Source: a virus
Taxonomy: Duplodnaviria > Caudoviricetes
Length of the DNA stretch: 64,000 bases
IMG/VR virus record: IMGVR_UViG_3300027804_000001
Span: 160,001-224,000 of that record
Direction: 5' to 3' (one strand)
In this document: positions 21,610 to 38,285 of the stretch, in pieces
Layout: each line of letters begins with the position of its first letter
How positions within the stretch are numbered: the first letter of the stretch is position 1
The notes under the pieces: model-generated
The model's database searches: none
Seen by the model: the letters and a program-made list of their open reading frames with translations, nothing else
What the model was told of the DNA's origin: nothing
Program-made: the position numbers and the translations under genes

Positions 21610-21638
21610 AATATAATGAAAAATACTATGAAAATCAA
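21610..21638 (-). promoter_or_regulatory. sigma70-like promoter, near-leaderless
   Basis: TTGATT-N17-TATATT, 8 nt before ATG 21601. Confidence 0.65.
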
Positions 21639-22207
21639 ATCAATTTCTTATCTTTTGTGAAATATTTTGAACCATATGGAAAGGGGATATCACTTTGCAA
21701 TTCGAATATATTCTTCAATTTCTCTATTCCATTTTCATAATACAAATGTTCATATGAAATGGTTGGCAAATCGTTTTGATTTGCAAAATCAATGAGGGTC
21801 TTTTTATTAAATTCTACCTCCTCTTTGAATTTATCATAATCTTCCTTAACAAACACTCTGTCCACATCTTTTTGTGTATAGTTATGATGATATCGATTCT
21901 CTTTACTTGAATACATGTGTGAGATGGTTTGTTCGTGTGTGTTTTCCCTATAAAGACAAAGAATCTTTGTACTTAATTTTAAAATCATACTGTAATTTTG
22001 TTCGGGATACCATAACTCTTTAATGAAATATTTTTTGTTTTCTAACCAGTCAAAGTCCTGTAAGGTTGTATCATTTGTGTAAATGTTAAAATCTGAATTA
22101 AATGGTTCATGAATTACAATGAATTCATTATTAAGTGATTGTTTTATCCAGTTCATTAGATTTTGACCACCAGTTCTATATTGTGCTATAATGGTATATA
22201 ATGTCAT
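21635..22207 (-). CDS. Sulfotransferase-like protein (Stf0-like)
   Basis: IIAQYRTGGQNL PAPS-loop, HEPFN, LYREN, ISYE. Confidence 0.6.
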   Translation of the reverse strand: MTLYTIIAQYRTGGQNLMNWIKQSLNNEFIVIHEPFNSDFNIYTNDTTLQDFDWLENKKYFIKELWYPEQNYSMILKLSTKILCLYRENTHEQTISHMYSSKENRYHHNYTQKDVDRVFVKEDYDKFKEEVEFNKKTLIDFANQNDLPTISYEHLYYENGIEKLKNIFELQSDIPFPYGSKYFTKDKKLI

Positions 22208-23274
22208 TATATCATAGTTTTTTTCATATCTAAAAACTCGTGTAGATTATGAAACACAAATGGGTCCTTGGCAACTTTATTAAATTCAATAAGAAAATCA
22301 TTATGATTAGGATGATTAACATCCCATACTTTTAAAAACTCAAATTGTTCATGTGTAAAAGTGCCCCAATTATTTATCTTACCATAAAAAACTTTTGTTT
22401 TCATACCAAAGATACTTTTCATTTGTTCTAAAAAAATACCCATTTCTTTATAGTTAGATTGTTGAACCACAAATGATGTTTTAACTTTTTTCATTTTAGG
22501 TATTGTGGCAATAAATTTAAGATTGGAAATTAAATTTTCCCATTCCCCATTTAATCTAGTTACATTCTCATATGTTTCTTTTGTACCCGCATCTATACTG
22601 ATTTCACATGTTAACACATAAGGATGAATATTTATCATTGATTCCCACATTTCTTTATTCCATAAACTTGCATTAGTATGTAGGTGTATATTTTTAAGTT
22701 TTGGGTACTTCTTAGGATTAAAGTTTCTAAGATAGTTTCTGTATGATACCGATGCAAATGGATCCGCGGTACCCGAACAATAAATTGTTTCTATTGAATT
22801 TGAGAAGGCTTCCTCCATTTCTTCGATTGTGGAATTAATTCTATTAATACCTTCCGAATTTGCAACAATCATTTTAACTCTACAAGATGGACATTTATAA
22901 TTACAAGTTCTATCAAAAGACATTTGTAATATTGTGGGACCATGTTCCATATGTGATTCCTTTTTTTCATAATGTTCTTTAATATAATCAGGTAAATTTT
23001 CAATTTTTTGTATGGGACCTGATGAGTCCATGTTGTAATTTAATAATTGAGCCAAAAATGGACATTGGGTTTTATCACAAAATCTATAGGAACCATCCAT
23101 CACCGATTCTCTAATTTCTATTGCCTCTTTACTATTCCATAAGTCTTTCAATGGAATTTTGTTTGGTAATTCCTTAGTCAACCAACTTGCACAACACATA
23201 AAATTTTTATTTTCATGTATTTCAACTGCTTGAAATGGAACAGTACAAACGTAATTCTTTAAATCAATATCCAT
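22207..23274 (-). CDS. Radical SAM protein with N-terminal SPASM/twitch-like Cys domain
   Basis: CNYKCPSC (CxxxCxxC), GTADPF, SIDAG; N-terminal CTVPF...MCC...C. Confidence 0.88.
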   Translation of the reverse strand: MDIDLKNYVCTVPFQAVEIHENKNFMCCASWLTKELPNKIPLKDLWNSKEAIEIRESVMDGSYRFCDKTQCPFLAQLLNYNMDSSGPIQKIENLPDYIKEHYEKKESHMEHGPTILQMSFDRTCNYKCPSCRVKMIVANSEGINRINSTIEEMEEAFSNSIETIYCSGTADPFASVSYRNYLRNFNPKKYPKLKNIHLHTNASLWNKEMWESMINIHPYVLTCEISIDAGTKETYENVTRLNGEWENLISNLKFIATIPKMKKVKTSFVVQQSNYKEMGIFLEQMKSIFGMKTKVFYGKINNWGTFTHEQFEFLKVWDVNHPNHNDFLIEFNKVAKDPFVFHNLHEFLDMKKTMI

Positions 23275-23277
23275 ATT

Positions 23278-23766
23278 TTATAATATAGTTCTTTTTTTAT
23301 TTAATCTCAATCTATTTTCTCCTTTGGGATTAAACAAATCTTCATAATATGTTATAGATATTCCTGTAATATTAGACAATTCTCTTAATTGTATGTCCCA
23401 ATTGATAATATCATTTTTACATTCTTCAAAAACGTTTATTGGGACTTCTTCATATACATATGGATTATTTGAATTGTATTTTTTTGTTTTAGAATAAAAA
23501 GTTTGATATGAGTGTGACTCTATACATTCCCCAATATTTTTTCTTGTTAAAAGAATTACCTCATCAAAATTTTTTAATAATTCTAAATTGTTTGGGTGGT
23601 GGGATACTATTGTTTTTACTACAATATTATCTTCGTCCTTTTTATATTGGATTCTATTTGTACCATCAAAGGGTTCAAACAAAGGTTTTAGATTTTTTTC
23701 CTTCGAAATTTTTTTTAGTAATGACGTAGATCCCGTTCTTGGTAAAGAAATTATGAGGATTCTCAT
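23278..23766 (-). CDS. Sulfotransferase-like protein (short)
   Basis: IISLPRTGSTSL, FEPF, LLTRKN, YYEDL. Confidence 0.65.
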   Translation of the reverse strand: MRILIISLPRTGSTSLLKKISKEKNLKPLFEPFDGTNRIQYKKDEDNIVVKTIVSHHPNNLELLKNFDEVILLTRKNIGECIESHSYQTFYSKTKKYNSNNPYVYEEVPINVFEECKNDIINWDIQLRELSNITGISITYYEDLFNPKGENRLRLNKKRTIL

Positions 23767-24317
23767 AATAATTTTTTCGTTTTATCTATTTTATAATATA
23801 CAAAGTTAGTATCATTCATCCATATGTTTAAAGCACATCTTAATCCAAAATTAACAGGCATAACACCATGATAAGTTTTGTTACCTTCGAAAGTTATACC
23901 CTCACCAATATTTAAATGTTGAATAACTTCTGAATCCTTTAGATTCACAAATTTGGGGGACAAACAAAAATCCCCATCCTCATAACCATCAGTCAACGAA
24001 ATAACAGTAGTATAGTTCGATGTTGAGTCTAAATGTAAATCCAAAAACCTACCCTCATAGTATCTTGTTAAACTAACATTTATGTTTGTTAAATTAAAAG
24101 AATTAAAATCAAACCAAAAGGAAATTGAACCCTGTTTATATAAACTATTTATATTATTTAATATCTTTTTTTTGAAGTCCTCATCATAAATCCTTCTACA
24201 ATCCCATGTTGTTTGTTCAAAATCATAATATGAAAAAGTTTCACCTTTTTCCATTGCAAAATCTATTATTGATTTACATTCTTCACGAGTAAAAAATTTA
24301 TTTATGGAATAATTCAT
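23763..24317 (-). CDS. 2OG-Fe(II) oxygenase (prolyl-4-hydroxylase-like)
   Basis: HLD, YEDGDF, YHGV, R-x-A-L-N. Confidence 0.85.
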   Translation of the reverse strand: MNYSINKFFTREECKSIIDFAMEKGETFSYYDFEQTTWDCRRIYDEDFKKKILNNINSLYKQGSISFWFDFNSFNLTNINVSLTRYYEGRFLDLHLDSTSNYTTVISLTDGYEDGDFCLSPKFVNLKDSEVIQHLNIGEGITFEGNKTYHGVMPVNFGLRCALNIWMNDTNFVYYKIDKTKKLL

Positions 24318-25135
24318 AATAATAATGAATAAGGTTCTTTTAAATTATAACCCAATAAATTGTTTTTTTGAATAAAATCGTAAATTTCTTCTGCAATTAA
24401 TTTATAACCATTTTTATTAGGATGTTTACCTAATTGAGATTCTGTAAAATGTGAGTTATCTTCCCATACATTTTTTCTGTTCGTTTCAATTAATAAATCT
24501 CTAAATGTTCTATTCTCAAATCCCCAATAATGTTTTCTATTTATTAGATTTGTTTTATCTATTTCTTGATTGATTGGATTTTTTATTAATGAATCAAAAG
24601 CATCACAAAACATATACCTTATTCCCATCTCATTGAACATATGTTGTAGGTAAAAAATATAATTTTGATTTATAATATTGTAATATGTGTCACAATAAAG
24701 ATTTGTTAGGTAGAATTCTTTGTAACTTAAACTCGCCCTATCAAATATTACGTTATTTTCTATTGTTTTATTAAAAATTGGTGTATAAATGTGTTTCTTA
24801 CTTTTATATCTTTCTCCCCAAAAATGCCACTCCCCCTTTGGGAAAAATGGAACATCATCCCTTAAAAAGGATGTCCACATTATTACAATAAAATCTCCTC
24901 GATTTATTTGATTGGATTTTAAACAATGTGAAACGGTCTCAAATATAATGTTATTTGATGCTCCTCCAATACCATTGTTAATGAATTCAACATTTAAAAT
25001 TTCTGAAAGATATCTTGGCCAACAAAACTCTTGTCTTATTTTAGTTCTTTCTTCTGGTGTATCATATTCGAGTTCTTTATTTGAATCCCCGCCAACACCT
25101 TCAGTCCAACTATCTCCAAATGTAAATAATCTCAT
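24314..25135 (-). CDS. SGNH-hydrolase-like protein
   Basis: TFGDSWTEG, GGASN, KHPNKNGY. Confidence 0.65.
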   Translation of the reverse strand: MRLFTFGDSWTEGVGGDSNKELEYDTPEERTKIRQEFCWPRYLSEILNVEFINNGIGGASNNIIFETVSHCLKSNQINRGDFIVIMWTSFLRDDVPFFPKGEWHFWGERYKSKKHIYTPIFNKTIENNVIFDRASLSYKEFYLTNLYCDTYYNIINQNYIFYLQHMFNEMGIRYMFCDAFDSLIKNPINQEIDKTNLINRKHYWGFENRTFRDLLIETNRKNVWEDNSHFTESQLGKHPNKNGYKLIAEEIYDFIQKNNLLGYNLKEPYSLLL

Positions 25136-25141
25136 TATGCA

Positions 25142-25279
25142 TTATTGCAAGTGTTTTGCTTTTATTGCATTAATTACCGATTGTACCGCAGTTGATATTT
25201 TTGTTTTAACACCATTTGAAATTGGTGCAATTGTTGGTTTTATAACTTGAGCGGGTCTTTCTGTTCTGATTGTTGACAT
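25142..25279 (-). CDS. Small hypothetical protein (45 aa), not in ORF track
   Basis: Translated by hand: MSTIRTERPAQVIKPTIAPISNGVKTKISTAVQSVINAIKAKHLQ; fills the gap, same strand as neighbours. Confidence 0.65.
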   Translation of the reverse strand: MSTIRTERPAQVIKPTIAPISNGVKTKISTAVQSVINAIKAKHLQ

Positions 25280-25306
25280 AACTTAAATATTTTTATAATT
25301 TTGATT

Positions 25307-26800
25307 TTATAATTTTGGTGGTAAACCTTGGTTACAACCCGAACAGCTGCTATCATAACAATAGTATCCACATGAATACCATGGACACCAACAACTATTA
25401 TGCATTACACTAAAAATACCATCACCTAAATCAACAAGAAATAAATCCGATGGCTCAAAGTCTAATCCATAAATCATCATACTTGAATGTTCCATTTCTA
25501 AATTGGTTATTTCAATAGTGGTTAACTCTTGTGTATTAGAGTCTGTTACTACTAATTTATCACCAATGTACATGTTATTTAATTTTTCAAATCTTGTCGA
25601 TAGTGATCCTGATTCTTCAATATAATACACACATGATGGAGAATCAACCCAAGTTTTACCATCTGAAGTAGTAATCCTAATAAAAATAGTATCAATTGAT
25701 GATGAAACAATCCCTTCTAATGAGGATGACATTTGTGTTAACGTTTCGTTACTTTGTGCTAAACTACCACTCCATCCCAACACGTCTAACTTACCTTGCT
25801 CAAAATAAGCAGCATGATTATCATTATAATCGATAAAGTCAATTGTTCTAATTAAACTTCCTAATTGTATGTTTGAAACATTTACTAATGACCCCGTATA
25901 ATCAATGATATTTGAATCAATATCAGTGTGGTAACTGTCCATTTTTTGGTTTATACCAACCTCTTTTGTGATATATTTTTGTCTAGTTTTTTGTGTTAAT
26001 TTTGTTGTATCATTTACAAATTCATTAAGACCAAAATTTAAAGGTACGACGGTTGATTGTCTGTATCCACCCAAATTTATAACGTCTAAATTACTACCAT
26101 AAACAATATCAATACTTCTAATTATTGAATATTTTCCATCCACCAAATTGTCTGTTGAAAATAAAAACTCCTGTAATAGGTAATTTTCAGATAAATTACC
26201 CTTCAACGAAGTTAATTGGGTTGCATCGTTTAATATATGTAATTCAGGGTATAGTGCTGTGTCATAATTAGGTATACGAGCTTTAATAACTATATTCGGG
26301 TTACTGAGATTTGAAAAGTCAACAGAATCTAAAGTGTCCATACCTAAATTATTTGAAACAAAGTAGGTCTTTGGAACGTAGGTACTACCACTCATTAAAT
26401 TAAAAAATCCAAATTTATCGGCACAGTATGAATCATCAATTAAGGCCGTTGTGTCAAAAGATTGTCTTAATATAAACTTATTAGGTGCGTCTTCAATATA
26501 AGGTACCGTTATAGAATTAGTTGGTACGGTATATTCAGAAAATTGTATGTTATTTTCTGAACATTTTTGTTGTAATTTTTGTTTAAAAACATAGGGTGAG
26601 TTTGAGGGAGAGTGTGAGTCATTCTCGGTGAAAATAAAATGAAATTCACTTATATTATTGTCCACTAACATCCCAAATAACGAATCGTAATCTAATAACT
26701 CTGCACCACTATTGTATATGGTTGTATTGGTATTTGTTTCTAATATTTTTACATCATCATTGTGTTCTAACAAATCAGTACCAAGAATAATTCCTTTCAT
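25307..26800 (-). CDS. Permuted ATP-grasp-like domain + Hint domain + Cys-rich C-terminal peptide
   Basis: GTDL...ILETNT, ADK...VPKT, VIKAR, LLQEF (ATP-grasp); IIDYTGSLVNVSNIQLGSLIRTID, MYIGDKL, IYGLDFEPSDLFLV...VMHN/S (Hint). Confidence 0.72.
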   Translation of the reverse strand: MKGIILGTDLLEHNDDVKILETNTNTTIYNSGAELLDYDSLFGMLVDNNISEFHFIFTENDSHSPSNSPYVFKQKLQQKCSENNIQFSEYTVPTNSITVPYIEDAPNKFILRQSFDTTALIDDSYCADKFGFFNLMSGSTYVPKTYFVSNNLGMDTLDSVDFSNLSNPNIVIKARIPNYDTALYPELHILNDATQLTSLKGNLSENYLLQEFLFSTDNLVDGKYSIIRSIDIVYGSNLDVINLGGYRQSTVVPLNFGLNEFVNDTTKLTQKTRQKYITKEVGINQKMDSYHTDIDSNIIDYTGSLVNVSNIQLGSLIRTIDFIDYNDNHAAYFEQGKLDVLGWSGSLAQSNETLTQMSSSLEGIVSSSIDTIFIRITTSDGKTWVDSPSCVYYIEESGSLSTRFEKLNNMYIGDKLVVTDSNTQELTTIEITNLEMEHSSMMIYGLDFEPSDLFLVDLGDGIFSVMHNSCWCPWYSCGYYCYDSSCSGCNQGLPPKL

Positions 26801-26827
26801 TTTTTTGTGTTAAGTTTTATATTAATA

Positions 26828-26856
26828 AATATACAATTTATTAAAAAGATAATCAA
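26828..26856 (-). promoter_or_regulatory. sigma70-like promoter for the ATP-grasp/Hint gene
   Basis: TTGATT-N17-TATATT, 27 nt upstream of ATG 26800; -35 flanked by AAGATAA/TTATCTT inverted repeat. Confidence 0.65.
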
Positions 26857-26896
26857 TGTTTATCTTAAAATAATATATATACGTATATACGTATGT

Positions 26897-27202
26897 TTAA
26901 ATTATTGTTTTATTATTTTTTTCAATTTGGGGTTCTAAAAGACCGTTGTCAGAATCGCCCCATTTTTTAAGTGGACAGGAATTGTAAATGTTAGAAAATA
27001 TTTTTTTATTTAATGGACACCCACATCTTAAACAAATTTCTGACCACCTATTATTTTTAATTAATGGTTTCTTATACTCACATGTTGAACAAATTGAATA
27101 CCTTTTTTCTGCTAGTTCTTTTTGTTCCTTAGTAGGATTTTTGGCACTTAACCAAGAGTTAAAGATTTCCTTATAGTTATATTCTATTCCGTTAATTTTC
27201 AT
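26897..27202 (-). CDS. Small Cys-rich (probable metal-binding) protein
   Basis: CSTC, CLRCGC, SCPLKKW (DUF6171-like pattern). Confidence 0.6.
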   Translation of the reverse strand: MKINGIEYNYKEIFNSWLSAKNPTKEQKELAEKRYSICSTCEYKKPLIKNNRWSEICLRCGCPLNKKIFSNIYNSCPLKKWGDSDNGLLEPQIEKNNKTII

Positions 27203-27990
27203 AATAAAGTCTTTGTTTCTTTAACAATATCGTAATAATCATAAATACCATCATAGGTATTTTTAAACTCTTCATTTAATTTTATGAAACAGTCCACATT
27301 TTTACTAGAATTGGTTTTTTCCAATTTAAAAGGTTTATTTATTTTAATACTAACCCATTTTTCTAATTCTTTTATATTGTCAAAATCAAACCAAATTATA
27401 TCTTTATTATGATGATGATAATTCGAGGTCGGCGTTAATAATATTTCAAAAATATTAAGAATATAGGAATCTATTTTTTTTTCTTTATCAAAAATAGATT
27501 CACCCACATCTATTCTCGTATCATTTAGTTGAACTCTTTTTTTTATAAAATTGTTTTTAATTAAAAAATCGTTTATCACATTTACTCTGCTTTCCTTACT
27601 CATTAAATCGTCGGTTGAGAAAAAAAATAATTCTTTTATATCGATATTTTTTAAATGTTCACTTACATAATGTGCTCCAATTCTTTGGGTATCGAAAATA
27701 ATTTGTTTAAATAATGAAAAAAACCTATCGTATTTATTTCTTTTTACACATAAAATTGGATAATTGTCCCCAAATTTTTTTTGTAAATCAAATAAACTTT
27801 CGTGTCCATGTTTTATTAAATCCATTAAGTTACTCTTTTCTATATTTTTTAAATCAATTTTATTATTGTTTTCATTTATAGAATTAGTTACAAATTTAAC
27901 ATTTAAATTATTTAATATACATGAATAATGAAAAGATGTGGATGCACATCTAGGTATTGATATATAAAAAAATTTATTGTCTACTAACAT
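27199..27990 (-). CDS. Sulfotransferase family 2-like protein
   Basis: FFYISIPRCASTS, KHGH, VKRNKYDRFFS, KTNSS. Confidence 0.65.
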   Translation of the reverse strand: MLVDNKFFYISIPRCASTSFHYSCILNNLNVKFVTNSINENNNKIDLKNIEKSNLMDLIKHGHESLFDLQKKFGDNYPILCVKRNKYDRFFSLFKQIIFDTQRIGAHYVSEHLKNIDIKELFFFSTDDLMSKESRVNVINDFLIKNNFIKKRVQLNDTRIDVGESIFDKEKKIDSYILNIFEILLTPTSNYHHHNKDIIWFDFDNIKELEKWVSIKINKPFKLEKTNSSKNVDCFIKLNEEFKNTYDGIYDYYDIVKETKTLL

Positions 27991-28610
27991 TATAGTAAAT
28001 TTTTGGGGCTTTTACTTTTGGCTGCAAAGTTGAAATTTATGATAAACCTATCACCATCCAATGGATAATTGGCGTGATGAGCTAGTCTACCGTCAAAAAC
28101 AAAACATCTTCCCATTTTTGGGGACACTCTTTTTAGTAGAGAATAAGAATCATAATTAACGTTATTAAAGTTTTCTTGGAAGGATTGAACGTTATCTCCA
28201 TTTACGTTTGTATAAAGACAGGTGTCACCTGTCGAATCGTTAACATAATAGACCACCGCAATGTGTTCATTTATCCTATCGTAATGTAATAAATGCATCG
28301 GATTGTGTTCAAAACTAATAGGTTGGGTCCAGTTAATTTTCCATCTATAATTTTGAACAAATTCTAAGTTTATTTTTTCCGAAATTCTAATTTGGAAATC
28401 ACTGATTAAATCTTTAATCTTATCATCCTTACAGTTATTTTGAGGGTGGACTTTGGCGGGGAATTTATGTGTACTTAATTTACCACCATAATATCCCGTA
28501 ACATTTTCCATGAATTCCCATTTTATGTTTTGATTTTTAACATATTCATATAAAATCTCTTGATTTTCTTTTGAAATTATATCGTCAAATATGTAATAAT
28601 TTTTAATCAT
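27990..28610 (-). CDS. 2OG-Fe(II) oxygenase-like protein
   Basis: HYD, VYYVNDSTGDT, PKMGRCFVFDG, HHA, RFIINFN. Confidence 0.8.
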   Translation of the reverse strand: MIKNYYIFDDIISKENQEILYEYVKNQNIKWEFMENVTGYYGGKLSTHKFPAKVHPQNNCKDDKIKDLISDFQIRISEKINLEFVQNYRWKINWTQPISFEHNPMHLLHYDRINEHIAVVYYVNDSTGDTCLYTNVNGDNVQSFQENFNNVNYDSYSLLKRVSPKMGRCFVFDGRLAHHANYPLDGDRFIINFNFAAKSKSPKNLL

Positions 28611-29260
28611 AATAAACTTTTCTCTTTTTTAATATAATCAAACCCAACATTACCGGCCACAACAATTCTATCAATAGTTGAATTCGGAGCATTATTTGGT
28701 GAGTGTGGCATATCGGCCTCCATTATTATTAAATCATCATTCTCAGGTCTAATCCAATATTCTTTTTTATTTTTTCCTCTAAAATATAACACACCATCTT
28801 CTCCATTCATTACATCCGGCATTTGAATGTAATAGACATAAGTATAATGAGGGGTAAATGATTTCATTTCTTTATTTATATCAGTATGAACGTGAAATTT
28901 GTCAACCCCTTTTAACTCTTCATGTTTGAATTGAATTTGAACCGGATTCGTTGATCTCACAACATTAACCCAAACCTCCGTATTGATTTTATTATACGTG
29001 GTATTTGTTTCTTCGTAAAGTTTTTTACAAGAATCTATCCCAATTTGTATTATTTCATCTAATTTTGTTTCAATTTTAACCTCACCTAAATAATTCAAAT
29101 TTTTATTCCATTCTTTTTTATACCCAAATCCATCTGTTTTAGTATCTGGTTGTGATTCAATAACGGAGTTTGCCAATTTTAATAATTCGGATTTGTCAGA
29201 TACTCGGTTTAATTTAGTTTTCCAAATATATGTGGTCTCGTCAAAATATAATTTTTCCAT
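28607..29260 (-). CDS. 2OG-Fe(II) oxygenase-like protein
   Basis: FHVH, YVYY, GVLYF, PHSP, RIVVAGN. Confidence 0.7.
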   Translation of the reverse strand: MEKLYFDETTYIWKTKLNRVSDKSELLKLANSVIESQPDTKTDGFGYKKEWNKNLNYLGEVKIETKLDEIIQIGIDSCKKLYEETNTTYNKINTEVWVNVVRSTNPVQIQFKHEELKGVDKFHVHTDINKEMKSFTPHYTYVYYIQMPDVMNGEDGVLYFRGKNKKEYWIRPENDDLIIMEADMPHSPNNAPNSTIDRIVVAGNVGFDYIKKEKSLL

Positions 29261-30510
29261 TAAATTATGTTTTTAAACTTACCTTTTTTATTTTTTTTGT
29301 AGACCATATCATAATTGTAAATCAGAAATGGTAATTTGTCTTCTGTCCAATATTCAAATTCAAAAGATTTCAATAAATCAGTGTCGTTTTTTAACGTTAA
29401 TTTATTATCATTATCCAAGATGGATTTAAGTTTTGTTGGTATGGGGGCATTATACGCATCTTTCCAAAATTCGGTATCTAATCTTTCATTAAGATAATGA
29501 TACCTAACAAACATCATATTTTGTTCATTTGTTTCGGCACAAATTTTATTAAACATGTCTCTATAGGAAGTATCAAATTCGAAATCAATTAGTCTTTTTA
29601 ATTGTATAATAGTAGACATTAATGATGTTGCTTCCAACGGTTCTAAAAAACCATAAGACAATCCGATTGAAATACTATTACCTATCCAACTCCTTTTAAA
29701 TGTACCAGCTTTGAAGTCAAAAACTTTTTGTATTGTTATTTCATGTCCTAAATGTTCTTCTACTTCTTTTTTTGCGTCCTCAACGGAGACGTATTTATCA
29801 TTAAATGCATATCCACACCCCAATCTATGTTGTAGTGGTATTTGAAACATCCATCCACAATTCATTGCACACAAGTATGTGTGAGTCAAATCTTTGTAAG
29901 AAATGGATTTCATCTGAGGTAAAAAGAAACCAAATGCTTTATTAACTAAAAGATATTCTGAATAATCAATCCAACTTTCTTTATGGACACCACTAATAAT
30001 CAATCTAGCAAAACCACTACAATCGAATACAAAATCTAAATTAATAATTTCTCCGTTTGAAAGTTCAATATTATTTATGATTTCATTTGTATTATTTATT
30101 TTAATAACTTCTCCGTCTATCCAATTTACTCCCCTTCCTAATGCAATATTTTTAAAATATTCTGAGACTTTCCTAGCATCAAAGTGAAATGCAGAATAAC
30201 TTCTTACATCGTTTGTTTGTTTATTGTTTTGATGAAATAAGTGTTCTGATTCACTTCCTTTGTGTGTCCAATTAATTAATTGAAGTCCATTTTTGGTTGT
30301 TGATCCCGTTTTTTCTAAAAATTCTTTTACGTTTATATCTAATAATTTAAGAAATAAACCGAAATTAGATGTACCACCTTCACCAGCACCTAATATCCCA
30401 ATTTTAGAACTTTCAATTAGAGTAACTTTTGTGTCTTTCCAAAACTTTTGTACACTTAACGCAGTTGCCCATCCCGCAGTCCCTCCTCCAATTATCACAA
30501 CATTTTTCAT
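29260..30510 (-). CDS. Flavin-dependent tryptophan-halogenase family protein
   Basis: GGGTAG, ILGAGEG, TKNGLQLINW, FDCSGF, GWMFQIPL, GFLEPLEATS. Confidence 0.88.
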   Translation of the reverse strand: MKNVVIIGGGTAGWATALSVQKFWKDTKVTLIESSKIGILGAGEGGTSNFGLFLKLLDINVKEFLEKTGSTTKNGLQLINWTHKGSESEHLFHQNNKQTNDVRSYSAFHFDARKVSEYFKNIALGRGVNWIDGEVIKINNTNEIINNIELSNGEIINLDFVFDCSGFARLIISGVHKESWIDYSEYLLVNKAFGFFLPQMKSISYKDLTHTYLCAMNCGWMFQIPLQHRLGCGYAFNDKYVSVEDAKKEVEEHLGHEITIQKVFDFKAGTFKRSWIGNSISIGLSYGFLEPLEATSLMSTIIQLKRLIDFEFDTSYRDMFNKICAETNEQNMMFVRYHYLNERLDTEFWKDAYNAPIPTKLKSILDNDNKLTLKNDTDLLKSFEFEYWTEDKLPFLIYNYDMVYKKNKKGKFKNII

Positions 30511-31076
30511 AATAAATTAATTTTTTTTATTGACGAAGGCCACACATTTATTGAATATCTTTTACCACTTACAATTGGTTCTACCGAATGTGTAATGTTG
30601 GATTCAAATATAAAAACACTTCCTTTTATTTTTGGTACGTTATATTCGGTTCCATCTAATATATATTTCACAAAACCACCATCATATTCGTCATTTAATT
30701 GAATAATAAAAGTTAATGTGGCACCATTTATTATCTCATGATTATCTTCGTGCCACTCTAAAAAATCATCTTTGTTATAACGATTAAATGAATATTTTAA
30801 AACTTTGACATATTCAATAGAATTAAGTGGTTTTAATCTATTACATGTGTTTATTATTTTTTTTGTTTGGTGTTCTAATATTGGGTCTAATAAAACCTCA
30901 TTGACAAAATAACAACCCATTCTTTTATTACCTTTATATTCCAAATTAGAATCGATTAGTTTACCTTTTACTATTTTAGATGACTTCATTTCTTTCAATG
31001 ACATCGACTCACCCAAATTTATTAGATAATCACACTCATCGTTGGTTAAAAAATTCTCAATCAATTTAGTGTACAT
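30507..31076 (-). CDS. 2OG-Fe(II) oxygenase (P4H-like)
   Basis: WHED, LNDEYDGG, THSV, GKRYS. Confidence 0.88.
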   Translation of the reverse strand: MYTKLIENFLTNDECDYLINLGESMSLKEMKSSKIVKGKLIDSNLEYKGNKRMGCYFVNEVLLDPILEHQTKKIINTCNRLKPLNSIEYVKVLKYSFNRYNKDDFLEWHEDNHEIINGATLTFIIQLNDEYDGGFVKYILDGTEYNVPKIKGSVFIFESNITHSVEPIVSGKRYSINVWPSSIKKINLL

Positions 31077-31078
31077 AA

Positions 31079-31627
31079 TTAGATTAAACTTTTAATTTTA
31101 TTTTCAATTTTTTGCAATCCAACCCAATTAACTATTGAATATCTGGTACCACTAATTATAGGTGTTATTCTATGTAATTTGTTTGATGGGAATAAAAATA
31201 AATTTCCAGCACCCTCTTCTAATTTTAAGTTTTCTTTATCTCCAACAATTTCAAAATTTCCACCGGTGTATTCGTCGTTTAATTGGATGACGGCTGAGTA
31301 GAACCTTTCGGGTCGGATTTCAATTGTTGAATCAACATGCCAATCATAATAACCACCAATTTCATATTGAGTGAATTGAAATTTACTTAAGTTGGTTACT
31401 GTATGTCCATTTATGGGCAATTTATCTCTAAGAACTTCTTTTAATTTTTCGTTTAAAAAACCTAAATTATCAATTCCTGCCACATTAGATTTTCTACCGT
31501 CTTTTGAATCTCCATAAACATCTGCCGGTTTTAATTCCAATTCGACTAAACATTTATTTAGAATGAAATTACATTCTTCTTTTGATAAAAAATTTTTTAT
31601 GGTAAAAATATTATTCATTTTTTCCAA
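31079..31627 (-). CDS. 2OG-Fe(II) oxygenase (PKHD/P4H-like)
   Basis: WHVD, LNDEYTGGNF, FPS, LHRI, GTRYS. Confidence 0.9.
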   Translation of the reverse strand: MEKMNNIFTIKNFLSKEECNFILNKCLVELELKPADVYGDSKDGRKSNVAGIDNLGFLNEKLKEVLRDKLPINGHTVTNLSKFQFTQYEIGGYYDWHVDSTIEIRPERFYSAVIQLNDEYTGGNFEIVGDKENLKLEEGAGNLFLFPSNKLHRITPIISGTRYSIVNWVGLQKIENKIKSLI

Positions 31628-31823
31628 TTCCGTATTTACTAAATTTATACCACACCCTTTCGTGTAGAAAATAAATAATTGGTTTTAAAATTATTTCACC
31701 TAAACCGACCATACTAGCCCATTTAAGTGGTAAACCAGCTGAAACTGTTAATAAAATTGTTGTAATAGTACCAACAATTCTGTAGGTTATACTTTTTGCA
31801 ATGTGTCTTTTAATTAGTGGCAT
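31611..31823 (-). CDS. DUF2061 family small membrane protein
   Basis: AKSITYRI, YFLHERVW. Confidence 0.85.
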   Translation of the reverse strand: MPLIKRHIAKSITYRIVGTITTILLTVSAGLPLKWASMVGLGEIILKPIIYFLHERVWYKFSKYGIGKNE

Positions 31824-32032
31824 TATATCAACGTTAACTCTTTTTTCTTACCTATTTCAAAAAACATTATTAAACTAAATCTTACTCCTTTTATTACAGG
31901 TAAGACTCTGTGTGGTAATTTATTGTTAGATATTATAGATAAGTTATTTTTTGGTTTTATTTTTATTTTTTCTTTCTTTTCGTCTATGTATTCAAATTCC
32001 CCACCATCGAAATTTTCATTTATCCATATCAT
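31823..32032 (-). pseudogene. C-terminal half of a 2OG-Fe(II) oxygenase (lacks HxD)
   Basis: INENFDGGEF, PHRV, GVRFS present; N-terminal half absent. Confidence 0.55.
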
Positions 32033-32050
32033 AATGAACGACTGATTTTC

Positions 32051-32413
32051 TTATAAATTTGTGGTACCGTCTGACTTTATCTCTCCTTTTCTAATTTTAG
32101 TACCACTTATTTCTGCAATTTCTGTTGGTGGTTCGTGATAAACGACATCATAACCAACTCCCCTACCATAATTTACCGATTCAATATCGGGTATAATACT
32201 GATAAAAATTTTATTAGAGTTTTCAACAAAAAAGGGTTCCTGTGATAATTCCATTAAAATGTCATGTGCCTTCTTAGGGTTATTCTCATCTTGTGGTACA
32301 TCTCTAATTGCCACCCACACATTTTTTCCTTTATCCAATTGTTGGCGGATTAACCATTCGTGGCCTTTATGCCAATTTTGCCATCTTCCGATGTATAATG
32401 CGTATTTTTTCAT
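32051..32413 (-). CDS. Minimal HIGH-family nucleotidyltransferase (cytidyltransferase-like; possible ATP sulfurylase)
   Basis: GRWQNWHKGH, ISGTKIR; coupled to APS kinase. Confidence 0.75.
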   Translation of the reverse strand: MKKYALYIGRWQNWHKGHEWLIRQQLDKGKNVWVAIRDVPQDENNPKKAHDILMELSQEPFFVENSNKIFISIIPDIESVNYGRGVGYDVVYHEPPTEIAEISGTKIRKGEIKSDGTTNL

Positions 32414-32847
32414 ATATCTATAAATTTAATTAAATCGATGAAGGATTCGTCATCGCGTTTGTTAGTGGTATTAATATCTACAAAATTTTCTGTGGGGGGG
32501 TCGTAATTTGTCACATGAAAGTTTTCTCTTCCTCTAATTTCTGTTGTGTGAACATAAATCTCAATTACGTCATTCATTTTTTTGAACTCGTCTCTTTGAT
32601 CTTTATATGGAGAAACCAAGGATACTACAACCGAATAACCCTTTTCATTCATAAAACGAGCAATATCTTGTGCCCTTTCTATGTTTCGTCTTCTACCTGT
32701 TTCTGAATAATCTTTATTTTGAAAGATGTCTCTTAGGTCGTCACCATCAATATGAATAACCTTCTCTGTGTTACTCAAATATGACAATAAATGTTTTGCT
32801 AATGTCGTTTTACCCGCTGCGGGTTGTCCTGTAAACCAATAAATCAT
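32410..32847 (-). CDS. cysC: Adenylyl-sulfate kinase
   Basis: WFTGQPAAGKTT P-loop, IDGDDLR, VSPYKDQR, YDPP. Confidence 0.9.
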   Translation of the reverse strand: MIYWFTGQPAAGKTTLAKHLLSYLSNTEKVIHIDGDDLRDIFQNKDYSETGRRRNIERAQDIARFMNEKGYSVVVSLVSPYKDQRDEFKKMNDVIEIYVHTTEIRGRENFHVTNYDPPTENFVDINTTNKRDDESFIDLIKFIDI

Positions 32848-37731: not shown

Positions 37732-38285
37732 TTGTCTTTCATTTGAAGTATTGGGTTATTTGTTGGCCATTCTATGTTCCATTTTGGGTCGTTCCATTTT
37801 GCCACTCCGTGATTTATAGAATCTACATATTCACCTTTATAAAACATATTATAATGAAAAACACAATCAGTTAATGCGTAGTGACCATTTGCAAATCCTG
37901 GTGGAACCAATACTTGATTTCTATTTTTTTCTGAGATTAAAAACCAATCCCATTTACCGTATGTTGGTGAATTTTCTCTAACATCTAAAACTACAAGATA
38001 TATGTCACCAACTAATGCTTGTACCAACTTCCATGTTTTATCATCATAATGTAGACCTCTTAAAACATTTTTATATGACTTTGAAAATCTACCGTGAAAA
38101 CTAATTTCATTTTTATCATAATGAATATGTCTCATAACCGGATGTTCTTCACTATGAAATGTTGTAAAAATTTCACCTCTAAATTCTCTAAAGACTGAGG
38201 GTGTGAATATAGGAACCTCACATCCAAAAACTTTAGATGGGTTTTCTTCAAAATCACTCCATTTTTTTTCACTCATATTCCCCAA
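37728..38285 (-). CDS. rmlC: dTDP-4-dehydrorhamnose 3,5-epimerase family
   Basis: RGEIF, NVLRGLH, LDVRENSPTYGKW, VPPGFANGH, WNDP. Confidence 0.9.
   Translation of the reverse strand: MGNMSEKKWSDFEENPSKVFGCEVPIFTPSVFREFRGEIFTTFHSEEHPVMRHIHYDKNEISFHGRFSKSYKNVLRGLHYDDKTWKLVQALVGDIYLVVLDVRENSPTYGKWDWFLISEKNRNQVLVPPGFANGHYALTDCVFHYNMFYKGEYVDSINHGVAKWNDPKWNIEWPTNNPILQMKDK

What the first reader, a model, noticed from the sequence alone, without database searches (positions are those of the whole stretch)
21635..32847. Peptide-tailoring-like neighbourhood around the Hint gene (possible phage RiPP cluster)
Seen: this 11 kb co-directional block, unlike the flanks, has no recognisable glycosyltransferase. 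It holds a Trp-halogenase, five intact 2OG-Fe(II) oxygenases, three sulfotransferase-like proteins, APS kinase, a radical SAM/SPASM protein and small Cys-rich ORFs. The released tail would offer Trp, Tyr and Cys. Established: flavin halogenases chlorinate peptide Trp (MibH), radical SAM/SPASM enzymes crosslink Cys or aromatics in RiPPs, and sulfotransferases act on Tyr. Inference: these enzymes decorate the Hint-released peptide or a virion protein. Similar oxygenase/halogenase genes also occur in phage islands with no known peptide, so the link is unproven.
Basis: inference. Interest (0 to 1): 0.75.

Follow-up and report, generated by a model that had tools for sequence, protein, structure and literature searches.

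The report
Phage tagged-enzyme module around ligase-Hint protein
A group of large uncultured water phages keeps one gene block in which a self-cutting ligase protein with a small cysteine-rich tail is always surrounded by oxygenases, a halogenase, sulfotransferase-like and other enzymes that all end in the same four-residue label; it looks like an undescribed machine for chemically decorating a peptide or protein, but its target is not yet known.

Summary
The gene content is as described, with corrections. The radical SAM protein has no SPASM domain, and the sulfotransferase calls rest on motifs and weak profile hits. The block also holds an SGNH hydrolase, a DUF2061 protein, a mini nucleotidyltransferase and an unnoticed 45-aa ORF.

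The "Hint gene" is real. It encodes a glutathionylspermidine-synthetase-like ATP-grasp domain, a cleavage-only Hint domain (His-Asn kept in 237 of 241 relatives) and a 29-aa six-Cys tail.

I compared 240 related phage loci from three clades, down to about 25% identity. In 93 of 94 non-redundant loci the gene lies beside enzymes ending in K-[ST]-L-[IL]-COOH. Only these enzymes carry the ending; the adjacent sugar and PAPS enzymes do not. So the block is one conserved module.

That the tail is the enzymes' substrate is unproven.
- One clade has a second Hint domain instead of the tail, yet keeps oxygenases, radical SAM and sulfotransferase-like genes.
- Enzyme gain and loss does not track tail composition.
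- The halogenase-Trp link rests on two evolutionary events.

A collagen-like fibre or glycan target is a live rival.

This scan met the hub protein and the tag before, in other phage genomes. I found no paper describing either.

The parts
32410..32847 (-). APS-kinase-like P-loop kinase (145 aa), untagged
   Evidence: PF01583 E 4e-19, NF004041 E 5e-19. Lies in a conserved trio just upstream of the hub gene in clades B and C.
32051..32413 (-). 120-aa HxGH / ISGTKIR nucleotidyltransferase, a candidate minimal ATP-sulfurylase-like partner of the kinase, untagged
   Evidence: Weak cytidylyltransferase-like and NMNAT hits (E 1e-4 to 0.03). Overlaps the kinase stop codon. Conserved at 71-95% identity in related loci.
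31823..32032 (-). 69-aa C-terminal fragment of a 2OG-Fe(II) oxygenase; carries the tag (ends TLI)
   Evidence: PF13640 E 8e-7, matching profile positions 37-97 only.
31611..31823 (-). DUF2061 small membrane protein (70 aa), untagged
   Evidence: PF09834 E 2e-12. Directly precedes the hub gene in clades B and C.
31079..31627 (-). 2OG-Fe(II) oxygenase (182 aa), tagged (ends KSLI)
   Evidence: PF13640 E 5e-14. Tag kept in 81-100% of homologues.
30507..31076 (-). 2OG-Fe(II) oxygenase (189 aa), tagged (ends NLL)
   Evidence: PF13640 E 2e-12; tag statistics.
29260..30510 (-). Flavin-dependent Trp-halogenase-family enzyme (416 aa), tagged (ends NII). Shorter than PrnA.
   Evidence: PF04820 E 4e-81; PrnA 2apg E 9e-50 with Lys and Glu aligned. 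Present only in clade A: 22/22 versus 0/35 and 1/37. Tag kept in 100% of homologues.
28607..29260 (-). 2OG-Fe(II) oxygenase (217 aa), tagged (ends KSLL)
   Evidence: PF13640 E 2e-4. Median 72% identity in 69 of 80 clade A loci.
27990..28610 (-). 2OG-Fe(II) oxygenase (206 aa), tagged (ends NLL)
   Evidence: PF13640 E 1e-4.
27199..27990 (-). Sulfotransferase-like P-loop protein (263 aa), tagged (ends KTLL)
   Evidence: Sulfotransfer_2 E 0.049. Atlas features score 0.97, with 74 of 100 nearest clusters Sulfotransfer_2. Present in 22/22 clade A, 16/35 clade B and 0/37 clade C loci.
26897..27202 (-). 101-aa zinc-ribbon-like protein with six invariant Cys, tagged (ends KTII); constant neighbour of hubs that have a Cys-rich tail
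   Evidence: Alignment A7; phrog_13558 E 3e-8. Present in 57/57 loci with a Cys-rich tail and 2/37 without.
25955..26800 (-). Hub protein residues 1-282: ATP-grasp ligase domain of the glutathionylspermidine / eukaryotic glutathione synthetase type
   Evidence: AF2 model pLDDT 89.8. VIA Z 10.0 to YgiC 7uka, 9.3 to GspS 2io7, 9.2-7.3 to eukaryotic GSH synthetases. D9, E21, N23, R112 and D122 are invariant over 112 sequences.
25397..25939 (-). Hub protein residues 288-468: cleavage-only Hint domain ending in His467-Asn468
   Evidence: Profile versus KlbA intein E 2.4e-8. Z about 16, rmsd about 2 A, to NpuDnaB intein, BIL and hedgehog. HN kept in 237/241 relatives. His291 sits at the structural position of intein Cys1.
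25310..25396 (-). Hub protein residues 469-497: 29-aa tail with framework x-C-W-C-P-W-x-x-C-G-x-x-C-x4-C-x2-C, ending K-L
   Evidence: Framework present in 53 of 58 distinct clade A proteins. Unmodelled by AF2 (pLDDT below 50). Replaced in other clades by different Cys frameworks, a second Hint domain or a Peptidase_S74 domain.
25142..25279 (-). Conserved 45-aa ORF just downstream of the hub gene (not Cys-rich, no tag; ends K-H-L-Q)
   Evidence: Homologous 45-50 aa ORFs start 4-40 nt after the hub stop in 77/77 clade A and 77/79 clade C loci. A 29-aa ORF takes that place in 47/80 clade B loci (alignment A8).
24314..25135 (-). SGNH/GDSL-type hydrolase or acyltransferase (273 aa), tagged (ends SLLL)
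   Evidence: PF00657 E 4e-6, DUF6071 E 1e-6. Tag kept in 95% of clade A homologues.
23763..24317 (-). 2OG-Fe(II) oxygenase (184 aa), tagged (ends KKLL)
   Evidence: PF13640 E 4e-5.
23278..23766 (-). Sulfotransferase-like P-loop protein (162 aa), tagged (ends RTIL)
   Evidence: PRTGS and R75...S84 motifs are invariant. Atlas structure TM 0.74 to a Stf0/Sulfotransfer_3 cluster. Pfam E only 0.17.
22207..23274 (-). Radical SAM enzyme with an N-terminal Cys-rich domain and no SPASM domain (355 aa), tagged (ends KTMI)
   Evidence: CX3CX2C at C124/C128/C131 is invariant. NF033640 E 3e-12. There are 539 relatives in IMG/VR, and 32/32 full-flank loci carry the hub gene.
21635..22207 (-).
   Evidence: No Pfam, NCBIfam or PHROG hit. 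Homologues occur in 13/35 clade B loci, 92% of them tagged.

Best explanation
The block is the core of a conserved post-translational-modification module of a clade of uncultured jumbo phages. Its hub is the 497-aa protein.

Proposed mechanism:
1. The small kinase / nucleotidyltransferase pair supplies PAPS (inferred from family).
2. The hub is made as an ATP-grasp ligase domain + Hint domain + 29-aa six-Cys tail. The Hint domain has no N-terminal nucleophile, so it can only cyclise Asn468 and cut the tail free. The catalytic residues are shown; the cleavage is inferred.
3. The surrounding oxygenases, halogenase, sulfotransferase-like proteins, radical SAM enzyme, SGNH enzyme and zinc-ribbon protein all end in K-[ST]-L-[IL]-COOH. 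This ending is a docking label that brings them to one common partner, most plausibly the hub (inferred).
4. There they hydroxylate, halogenate, sulfate or otherwise tailor a peptide substrate. In phages of this type the Cys/Trp/Tyr tail is the leading candidate, possibly together with the product of the tiny downstream ORF. The substrate is then released, in a RiPP-like way, with a self-cleaving 'leader protein' in place of a leader protease.

I give about 0.75 that the block is one functional module centred on the hub. I give about 0.4 that the tail or downstream peptide is its substrate.
For: - Hub architecture. AF2 pLDDT 89.8. Hint fold Z about 16 and ATP-grasp Z 9-10; Foldseek E 1e-7 and 1e-5; profile versus inteins E 2.4e-8. 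HN kept in 237/241 relatives. D9, E21 and N23 are invariant.
- Co-occurrence. 240 loci in three clades, down to about 25% identity, keep the enzyme families next to the hub. 93 of 94 non-redundant loci have tagged ORFs within 6 kb, with medians of 9, 7 and 5. The reverse test gives 32/32.
- Position. The share of ORFs that carry the tag peaks beside the hub whichever side the enzymes lie on: 83/88, 108/137 and 63/131 in the nearest 2-kb bin, against 10% or less at 8-10 kb.
- Tag specificity. The tag is kept in 80-100% of homologues of the tailoring enzymes and in 0% of APS kinase, nucleotidyltransferase, DUF2061, carbamoyltransferase and sugar enzymes. It is absent from pelagiphage oxygenases and halogenase.
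- Excised-unit pattern. In relatives the Cys-rich segment is followed by a second complete Hint domain or by a self-cleaving Peptidase_S74 domain. It is therefore bracketed by autoprocessing modules, as expected for a unit that is cut out.
- Links to the tail. The halogenase is confined to the clade whose tails hold invariant Trp (22/22 versus 1/72). Cys101 is confined to hubs with Cys-rich tails (57/57 versus 2/37).
- Halogenase shape. The halogenase lacks PrnA's C-terminal region and about 50 residues of its free-Trp site, which is compatible with a bulkier substrate.
Against: - Clade C hubs have a second Hint domain and only a 0-12 residue Cys-free linker. Yet they keep tagged oxygenases, radical SAM and sulfotransferase-like genes, and no separate Cys-rich ORF sits nearby.
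- Enzyme turnover is frequent and is not tied to tail composition.
- The halogenase-Trp and Cys101-tail associations rest on 2 and 3 changes on the tree, so they have no statistical power.
- All loci come from one phage lineage with a syntenic 60-kb island, so the co-occurrence is not phylogenetically independent.
- The island is otherwise devoted to glycans and ends in a collagen-like fibre.
- Within clade A the tail is a fairly conserved small domain (55% identity at non-Cys sites), and 4 of 53 proteins have Pro right after Asn468, which may hinder cleavage.
- No cleavage, modification or binding has been observed.
Confidence: 0.4

Rival explanations
1. The tagged enzymes tailor virion surface components: the collagen-like tail fibre at 12927-16034, other outer proteins, or the glycans built by the flanking sugar genes. 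Oxygenases hydroxylate residues or sugars. Sulfotransferases, an SGNH acyl-enzyme, the carbamoyltransferase and methyltransferases then cap the hydroxyls. The ligase-Hint protein is a separate member of the same island, for example an attachment or maturation factor, rather than the substrate.
For: - The block is embedded in about 60 kb of glycosyltransferase and sugar-nucleotide genes and ends with GT-MT-GT-collagen-like fibre. That order recurs in related loci.
- Iyer et al. 2010 (PMC2938197) predicted that bacterial operons of dioxygenases, sulfotransferases and PAPS synthetases modify co-encoded collagen-like or tail-collar proteins.
- The nearest Atlas families of the two supported sulfotransferase-like proteins are Sulfotransfer_2 and Stf0/Sulfotransfer_3. 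From my own knowledge, these families include many carbohydrate sulfotransferases.
- Clade C keeps the enzymes without any Cys-rich tail.
- Enzyme turnover is uncoupled from the tail.
Against: - Glycosyltransferases, methyltransferases and the carbamoyltransferase of the same island lack the tag (0%). The tagged set is therefore distinct from the glycan machinery.
- The share of tagged ORFs falls off with distance from the hub gene, not from the fibre gene.
- A Trp halogenase has no obvious role on glycans.
Confidence: 0.3
2. The tag is a substrate or handle for the hub rather than a mere dock. The ATP-grasp domain belongs to a family that activates peptide C-terminal carboxylates. It would join tagged proteins, the tiny downstream peptide or the released tail to each other or to a target. 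In relatives with a second Hint domain, a thioester would do the same job without ATP. The module would then be a protein-ligation or anchoring system, and the enzymes would be its cargo.
For: - The N-domain's best structural relatives ligate amines to C-terminal carboxylates: YgiC, GspS and glutathione synthetases at Z 7-10. RimK, TTLL and LysX score lower, at Z 5.6-6.4.
- The catalytic-type residues are invariant in all clades, even where the tail is absent.
- Relatives place a complete Cys1...HN Hint domain after the tail or linker. This is the arrangement that lets BIL2 of Tetrahymena conjugate a ubiquitin-like domain to lysines.
- The tag and the downstream ORF have conserved C-termini.
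Against: - There is no evidence of any ligation product.
- Nothing shows that the ATP-grasp domain reads the tag.
- The tail's own C-terminus is not conserved between clades.
- It is unclear why oxygenases and a halogenase would need to be anchored.
Confidence: 0.15
3. There is no common substrate. The genes are independent auxiliary genes kept together by lineage synteny, and the C-terminal ending is a shared turnover or localisation signal, for example a ClpX-type basic-hydrophobic degron, unrelated to the hub.
For: - All 240 loci belong to one phage lineage, so synteny alone could keep the genes adjacent.
- Similar oxygenase/halogenase arrays occur without the hub in cyanophages and pelagiphages.
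- From my own knowledge, the ending resembles known basic-then-hydrophobic C-terminal degrons.
Against: - The enzymes keep their place beside the hub despite a change of side, frequent gain and loss, and divergence to 25% identity.
- The tag is absent from the same enzyme families in phages that lack the hub.
- 32/32 radical-SAM loci carry the hub.
Confidence: 0.1

Closest known systems
RiPP biosynthetic gene clusters (for example microbisporicin with the peptide-Trp halogenase MibH; graspetides with ATP-grasp ligases)
   Same: A genetically encoded Cys/Trp/Tyr-rich peptide segment sits next to several tailoring enzymes. An ATP-grasp enzyme is present. The peptide differs between clades while the machinery is conserved.
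   Different: - The 'leader' is a 468-aa enzyme-plus-Hint protein that would remove itself.
- No RRE-type recognition domain was seen; instead the enzymes carry a common C-terminal tag.
- One clade has no core peptide at all.
- No modification has been shown.
Pretoxin-Hint (PT-HINT) modules of bacterial polymorphic toxins and type-A bacterial intein-like (BIL) domains
   Same: A Hint domain that keeps the C-terminal His-Asn lies directly before a variable C-terminal module. Cleavage rather than splicing is expected. BIL 2lwy matches at Z 16.
   Different: - The N-terminal partner is an ATP-grasp ligase, not a secretion or filament domain.
- The C-terminal module is a 29-aa Cys knot, not a toxin domain.
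- There is no N-terminal nucleophile.
- The family appears phage-only: no hit in 185,579 prokaryote genomes by pattern scan.
BUBL/BIL2 of Tetrahymena (ubiquitin-like domain dispensed by a Hint domain; PDB 6tmm, 6y75; PMC8616854)
   Same: Relatives of the hub (P0122, P0129-P0133) place the Cys-rich peptide between one Hint C-terminus and the Cys1 of a second, complete Hint domain. This is the layout that lets BIL2 activate and conjugate the upstream domain.
   Different: The window's protein has no second Hint domain. The cargo is not ubiquitin-like. Conjugation is only an analogy.
Cyanophage Syn9-type tandem dioxygenase/Trp-halogenase arrays, and bacterial dioxygenase-sulfotransferase-PAPS synthetase operons with collagen-like or tail-collar proteins (Iyer et al. 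2010, PMC2938197)
   Same: Several unrelated 2OG oxygenases lie together with a Trp-halogenase-family enzyme, sulfotransferases and PAPS supply, in a phage and near a collagen-like fibre.
   Different: Those arrays have no ligase-Hint hub. In the one I checked, pelagiphage HTVC008M, the enzymes carry no C-terminal tag. Their substrates are also unknown.
Glutathionylspermidine synthetase / YgiC-YjfC / eukaryotic glutathione synthetase ATP-grasp ligases
   Same: The fold of residues 1-282 matches (Z 7-10), and the invariant Asp...Glu-x-Asn lies at the very N-terminus. That fits the circularly permuted order known for eukaryotic glutathione synthetase.
   Different: No sequence-level family hit. 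The domain is fused to a Hint domain. Its substrate is unknown.
Short C-terminal address or docking tags (PTS1 SKL-COOH, encapsulin cargo-loading peptides, class I PDZ ligands, ClpX C-motif 2)
   Same: A 3-4 residue C-terminal motif is shared by unrelated proteins. Ser/Thr at position -2 and hydrophobic residues at -1 and 0 recall [ST]-x-hydrophobic-COOH ligands.
   Different: The reader of the tag is unknown. No PDZ, TPR or shell protein was linked to it here. The resemblance comes from my memory, not from a test.

Membership tests
Hint/intein superfamily (hub residues 288-468) | Hint fold | tested here: met
   VIA-align Z 16.0, rmsd 2.0 A over 139 residues to NpuDnaB intein. Z 16.0 to BIL 2lwy and 15.5 to hedgehog 1at0. 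Foldseek E 1e-7. Profile versus KlbA intein E 2.4e-8.
Hint/intein superfamily (hub residues 288-468) | C-terminal His-Asn for Asn cyclisation | tested here: met
   H467-N468 is kept in 237 of 241 aligned proteins. The preceding block keeps D447, E449 and D452 in clade A.
Splicing inteins | Cys/Ser/Thr nucleophile at Hint position 1 | tested here: not met
   Structural alignments put residue 291 opposite intein residue 1. It is His in clade A, and no nucleophile is conserved there across the family.
Splicing inteins | Conserved Cys/Ser/Thr at position +1 | tested here: not met
   The +1 residue is S, G, T, A or P in clade A and varies freely elsewhere.
ATP-grasp ligases (GspS / glutathione synthetase branch) | ATP-grasp fold | tested here: met
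   Z 10.0 to YgiC 7uka (203 residues aligned), 9.3 to GspS 2io7, 9.2-7.3 to eukaryotic GSH synthetases. Foldseek E 1e-5.
ATP-grasp ligases (GspS / glutathione synthetase branch) | Mg-ATP-binding acidic residues (Asp...Glu-x-Asn) | tested here: inconclusive
   D9, E21 and N23 are invariant in 112 sequences, with the spacing typical of the family. I could not check their equivalence to the catalytic residues residue by residue.
RiPP biosynthetic gene cluster | Gene-encoded core peptide co-located with tailoring enzymes | tested here: inconclusive
   The Cys-rich tail and a 45-aa ORF lie among the enzymes in clades A and B. Clade C has the enzymes but no Cys-rich peptide.
RiPP biosynthetic gene cluster | Enzymes recognise the precursor (leader / RRE) | tested here: inconclusive
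   No PqqD/RRE-type domain appeared among the Pfam hits for any protein of the block. The enzymes share a C-terminal tag instead.
RiPP biosynthetic gene cluster | Core peptide is modified and released | not testable with these tools
   Needs expression and mass spectrometry.
Flavin-dependent tryptophan halogenases | Family fold, GxGxxG, catalytic Lys and Glu | tested here: met
   PF04820 E 4e-81. The alignment to PrnA puts a Lys opposite the Lys of its AFKAAIKF stretch, and FLEPLE is conserved.
Flavin-dependent tryptophan halogenases | Free-tryptophan binding module and WxWxIP motif | tested here: not met
   The protein has 416 aa against 538 in PrnA. The alignment stops near PrnA residue 408, and PrnA 105-158 has no counterpart. 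The motif reads W-M-F-Q-I-P.
Radical SAM / SPASM maturases | CX3CX2C radical SAM cluster | tested here: met
   C124, C128 and C131 are invariant. PF04055 E 1e-4.
Radical SAM / SPASM maturases | C-terminal SPASM Cys motif | tested here: not met
   There is no Cys in the last 130 or so residues. The conserved extra Cys are N-terminal (C10, C27, C66, C71). The best model is the twitch-type NF033640.
PAPS-dependent sulfotransferases | 5'-phosphosulfate loop and 3'-phosphate Arg/Ser motifs; family profile match | tested here: inconclusive
   - The motifs are invariant in the 162-aa family.
- Pfam E is only 0.05-0.17, and the profile finds no PDB sulfotransferase.
- Atlas neighbours are sulfotransferase clusters (0.93-0.97; TM 0.74) for two of the three proteins.
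- The 190-aa protein has no support.
Pretoxin-Hint polymorphic toxins | C-terminal toxin domain and N-terminal trafficking domain | tested here: not met
   The N-terminus is an ATP-grasp domain. The C-terminus is a 29-aa Cys-rich segment with no family hit.

The most novel reading that the evidence does not exclude
The module is an undescribed kind of protein-assembly or ligation system. More than fifteen unrelated enzyme families carry a four-residue C-terminal label. The label is read, and perhaps covalently used, by an ATP-grasp-Hint hub. The hub combines ATP-driven carboxylate activation with Hint-driven cleavage or thioester chemistry. With these it would build, tailor and release, or anchor, a small Cys-rich product. 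The hub would be enzyme, scaffold and precursor in one polypeptide.
Probability: 0.2. Interest if true: 0.95.

Novelty: new variant of a known kind. Interest (0 to 1): 0.8.

Why it matters
If the module tailors and self-releases a peptide, it would be a phage-borne class of ribosomal natural products. Its logic would be new: a leader that is itself an enzyme and cuts itself off, with docking labels on the enzymes rather than recognition domains.

It is widespread. I found hundreds of hub homologues and 539 radical-SAM relatives in public viral contigs, on contigs up to 335 kb.

It would also give a first concrete candidate substrate for the puzzling oxygenase/halogenase arrays known in marine phages since 2010.

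If the rival is right, it points instead to heavily decorated (hydroxylated, sulfated, halogenated) virion surfaces. That bears on host recognition and on escape from defence.

Either way, the four-residue tag is a simple, testable handle for finding the partners.

Tried and rejected
1. AF2 of the hub with 16 close homologues gave an unusable model (pLDDT 44). Only the 112-sequence alignment worked.
2. Complex prediction of the hub with the adjacent zinc-ribbon protein returned 'no answer' (score 0.01). This is no evidence either way.
3. The profile of the 162-aa sulfotransferase-like family found no solved sulfotransferase in the PDB.
4. The hub protein found nothing in the 50,697 GenBank phage records. 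The block's DNA found nothing there either. I therefore had no independent, non-phage context.
6. Phylogenetically independent pair tests had too few events or showed no association. I tested halogenase versus Trp, Cys101 versus Cys-rich tail, sulfotransferases versus Tyr, and radical SAM versus Cys-rich tail.
7. I considered that the shared C-terminal ending is a by-product of overlapping stop and start codons, and rejected it. Other overlapping genes in the window lack the ending, and tagged genes followed by 33-96 nt gaps keep it.
8. I rejected the SPASM reading of the radical SAM protein.
9. I looked for a separately encoded Cys-rich peptide near hubs that lack the tail and found none.
10. 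Contexts of three distant homologues fetched by exact look-up were too short (2-6 kb) to be decisive, though two showed radical SAM or 2OG genes.
11. The sigma-70 promoter scan was no better than shuffles (87 found versus 87 expected). The terminator-like hits were not followed up.

Full report
**Where the window lies.** The window is the reverse strand of bases 178-64177 of a 180,831-bp IMG/VR virus record, linear, with CheckV completeness 54%. GC is about 28%. Earlier notes of this scan call it an uncultured freshwater jumbo phage.

**The observation.** Between 21635 and 32847 all genes lie on the minus strand, mostly overlapping or a few bases apart.
- Pfam, NCBIfam and PHROGs confirm a Trp-halogenase-family enzyme (PF04820 E 4e-81; phrog_2928 E 2e-92).
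- Five full-length 2OG-Fe(II) oxygenases of the PF13640 type are present, each with HxD...H...R, plus a 69-aa fragment.
- There is an APS-kinase-like protein (E 4e-19) and a radical SAM protein with CX3CX2C.
- The radical SAM protein has no cysteine in its C-terminal 130 residues. Its conserved extra cysteines are N-terminal, and its best model is the 'twitch' type NF033640. So 'SPASM' is wrong.
- The three 'sulfotransferase-like' proteins are below Pfam thresholds. The 162-aa family keeps the P-loop-like PRTGS and the R...S motif invariant. Its Atlas model resembles Stf0/Sulfotransfer_3 clusters (TM 0.74). The 263-aa protein's nearest Atlas clusters are Sulfotransfer_2 (0.97).
- The block also contains an SGNH/GDSL enzyme, a DUF2061 membrane protein and a 120-aa HxGH nucleotidyltransferase overlapping the kinase.
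- There is no glycosyltransferase in the block. Both flanks are full of glycosyltransferases, methyltransferases, a carbamoyltransferase and sugar-nucleotide enzymes. Downstream lies a collagen-repeat fibre with a Peptidase_S74 chaperone.

**The 'Hint gene' (25307-26800).** It has no Pfam, NCBIfam or PHROG hit. It nevertheless has more than 650 homologues at 59-73% identity and 267 clusters of more distant relatives.

With a 112-sequence alignment AlphaFold2 gave pLDDT 89.8 and pTM 0.86, leaving only residues 471-497 unmodelled.
- Residues 288-468 are a Hint fold. VIA-align gives Z 16.0 to NpuDnaB intein and to a bacterial intein-like domain, and 15.5 to hedgehog, at rmsd about 2 A. Foldseek gives E 1e-7. 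The family profile hits the KlbA intein at E 2.4e-8.
- Residues 1-282 are an ATP-grasp domain closest to YgiC (Z 10.0), glutathionylspermidine synthetase (9.3) and eukaryotic glutathione synthetases (9.2-7.3).
- D9, E21, N23, R112 and D122 are invariant across the whole family.
- The terminal His-Asn is kept in 237 of 241 proteins.
- The residue at the structural position of intein Cys1 is His291, and the +1 residue varies.

The domain can therefore at most cut at its own C-terminus. The sister notes on this gene (e1-5320983, e1-5320984) are thus borne out.

**What follows His-Asn differs by clade.**
- Clade A (this window): a 29-aa tail with the framework x-C-W-C-P-W-x-x-C-G-x-x-C-x4-C-x2-C, present in 53 of 58 distinct proteins. 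Its non-Cys positions are 55% identical, against 68% for the rest of the protein.
- Clade B: unrelated 6- or 8-Cys frameworks of 23-62 residues.
- Clade C: a 0-12 residue Cys-free linker, then a complete canonical Hint domain (Cys1 ... His-Asn-Lys), sometimes two.
- Other relatives have the Cys-rich segment followed by such a Hint domain. Others have it followed by a Peptidase_S74-like self-cleaving chaperone (weak Pfam E 0.007; KSD..K.NI motif).

The Cys-rich segment is thus repeatedly bracketed by autoprocessing domains. This is what one expects of a unit that is cut out. That is inference, not observation.

I fetched 80 loci for each of three clades from IMG/VR and mapped the window's proteins onto them.
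- Clade A keeps the order kinase - nucleotidyltransferase - DUF2061 - oxygenases - halogenase - oxygenases - 263-aa sulfotransferase-like - zinc-ribbon - hub - SGNH - oxygenase - 162-aa sulfotransferase-like - (radical SAM) - GT - MT - GT - collagen fibre.
- In clades B and C the kinase-nucleotidyltransferase-DUF2061 trio directly precedes the hub, and the enzymes follow it.
- Among 94 non-redundant loci with at least 6 kb on both sides, some 2OG oxygenase is present in 22/22, 31/35 and 28/37 (clades A, B, C). A sulfotransferase-like gene is present in 22/22, 24/35 and 16/37. Radical SAM is present in 3/22, 18/35 and 20/37. The zinc-ribbon is present in 22/22, 35/35 and 2/37. The halogenase is present in 22/22, 0/35 and 1/37.
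- Conversely, of the best 80 of 539 radical-SAM relatives, all 32 loci with full flanks carry the hub gene.
- No hub relative was found in GenBank phages or in prokaryote genomes. Cyanophage and pelagiphage halogenase/oxygenase arrays therefore exist without it.

**The C-terminal tag.** The tailoring enzymes end in K/N-[TSKN]-[LI]-[LI]-COOH.
- Across all three clades the ending is kept in 80-100% of homologues of most tagged families: the halogenase (100%), the three sulfotransferase-like families, radical SAM, SGNH and most of the oxygenase families. A few clade-family combinations fall lower, for example 32% for the 184-aa oxygenase in clade B, 40-60% for the 217-aa oxygenase in clades B and C, and 47% for the 189-aa oxygenase in clade C. 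The zinc-ribbon protein keeps it in 94% (clade A) and 67% (clade B).
- It is kept in 0% of the kinase, nucleotidyltransferase, DUF2061, carbamoyltransferase, GT908, methyltransferase and sugar enzymes.
- It is not a side-effect of overlapping stops and starts.
- It is absent from pelagiphage HTVC008M oxygenases and halogenase.
- The share of tagged ORFs peaks in the 2 kb next to the hub gene (83/88 upstream in clade A; 108/137 and 63/131 downstream in clades B and C). It falls to 10% or less at 8-10 kb.
- 93 of 94 loci have at least one tagged ORF within 6 kb, with medians of 9, 7 and 5.
- 270 tagged ORFs in the loci have no homologue in this window, so the tagged set is larger than seen here.

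This makes the block a coherent unit centred on the hub, whatever the tag's reader is.

**A new part.** A 45-aa ORF (25142-25279) starts 27 nt after the hub's stop codon. Homologous 45-50 aa ORFs with a shared C-terminal ..K.KH[LSMT] motif follow the hub in 77/77 clade A and 77/79 clade C loci, and in an S74-type locus. Clade B has a 29-aa ORF there in 47/80 loci. It is neither Cys-rich nor tagged. It could be a substrate or partner of the ligase domain.

**Is the tail the substrate?**

For:
- The halogenase occurs only where the tail has invariant Trp.
- The zinc-ribbon occurs only where there is a Cys-rich tail.
- The 263-aa sulfotransferase-like gene is absent from all tail-less loci.
- The halogenase lacks PrnA's free-Trp module.

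Against:
- These associations correspond to only 2, 3 and 7 changes on the hub tree, and paired tests have no power.
- Clade C keeps tagged oxygenases, radical SAM and 162-aa sulfotransferase-like genes with no Cys-rich peptide fused or nearby.
- Radical SAM changed state 17-18 times without any change in tail type.
- Sulfotransferase presence does not follow tail Tyr content.

The published precedent points the other way. Iyer et al. 2010 predicted collagen-like and tail-collar proteins as substrates of dioxygenase-sulfotransferase-PAPS operons, and left the Syn9 dioxygenase/halogenase arrays unexplained. A collagen-like fibre lies 6 kb downstream here.

**Verdict.** I rate the block as one functional module centred on the hub at about 0.75, and the tail (or downstream peptide) as its substrate at about 0.4. 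A virion fibre or glycan target gets about 0.3, a tag-directed ligation or anchoring system about 0.15, and mere synteny about 0.1.

Full-text searches found no paper that combines ATP-grasp, Hint and phage in this way, or that links intein-like domains to jumbo phages.

Within this scan, the hub protein and the tag have been reported before on other phage genomes. Those notes agree with what I measured here.

Noticed in passing
window 21635-32032 (C-termini of 14 proteins) and loci L002-L245: The shared C-terminal ending K/N-[TSKN]-[LI]-[LI]-COOH is found on the oxygenases, halogenase, sulfotransferase-like proteins, radical SAM, SGNH and zinc-ribbon proteins. It is kept in 80-100% of homologues for most of these families in three clades and in 0% of the adjacent PAPS and sugar enzymes. 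The share of tagged ORFs peaks beside the hub gene. Its reader is unknown.
   Followed up: yes
window 25142-25279 (-): An unannotated 45-aa ORF lies right after the hub gene. It is conserved as a 45-50 aa ORF with a ..K.KH[LSMT] C-terminus in clades A and C, and a 29-aa ORF takes its place in clade B.
   Followed up: partly
proteins P0122, P0129-P0133, P0242-P0264 and loci L166-L245: Relatives of the hub carry one or two complete canonical Hint domains (Cys1 ... His-Asn-Lys) after the first His-Asn, with or without an intervening Cys-rich peptide. This gives tandem Hint domains in a phage protein.
   Followed up: partly
proteins P0013, P0118, P0152, P0160-P0168, P0175: Other relatives carry a Peptidase_S74-like self-cleaving chaperone (KSD..K.NI) after the Cys-rich segment. 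This is a domain otherwise typical of trimeric tail fibres.
   Followed up: partly
window 31611-32847 and loci of clades B and C: The APS-kinase-like, 120-aa nucleotidyltransferase and DUF2061 genes form a fixed trio immediately upstream of the hub gene in clades B and C. The kinase is short: 145 aa, matching profile positions 4-110 of 152.
   Followed up: partly
window 29260-30510 (-): The halogenase has 416 aa against 538 in PrnA. PrnA residues 105-158 and the region beyond about 408 have no counterpart, and WxWxIP reads W-M-F-Q-I-P. Its closest cultured-phage relative is in Pelagibacter phage HTVC008M (34% identity).
   Followed up: partly
window 58944-61052 (-), 61049-63894 (-), 38273-39016 (-): The sugar island holds a 702-aa protein with a radical SAM domain, two GT7-type galactosyltransferase-like proteins (one with a Laminin_G_3 domain) and a PhyH-type dioxygenase.
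   Followed up: no
window 26801-26896 and 25280-25306: The hub gene is flanked by the only sizeable non-coding gap of the block: 96 nt upstream, AT-rich, with a direct ACGTATAT repeat. This suggests its own expression signals. The sigma-70 scan was uninformative.
   Followed up: no
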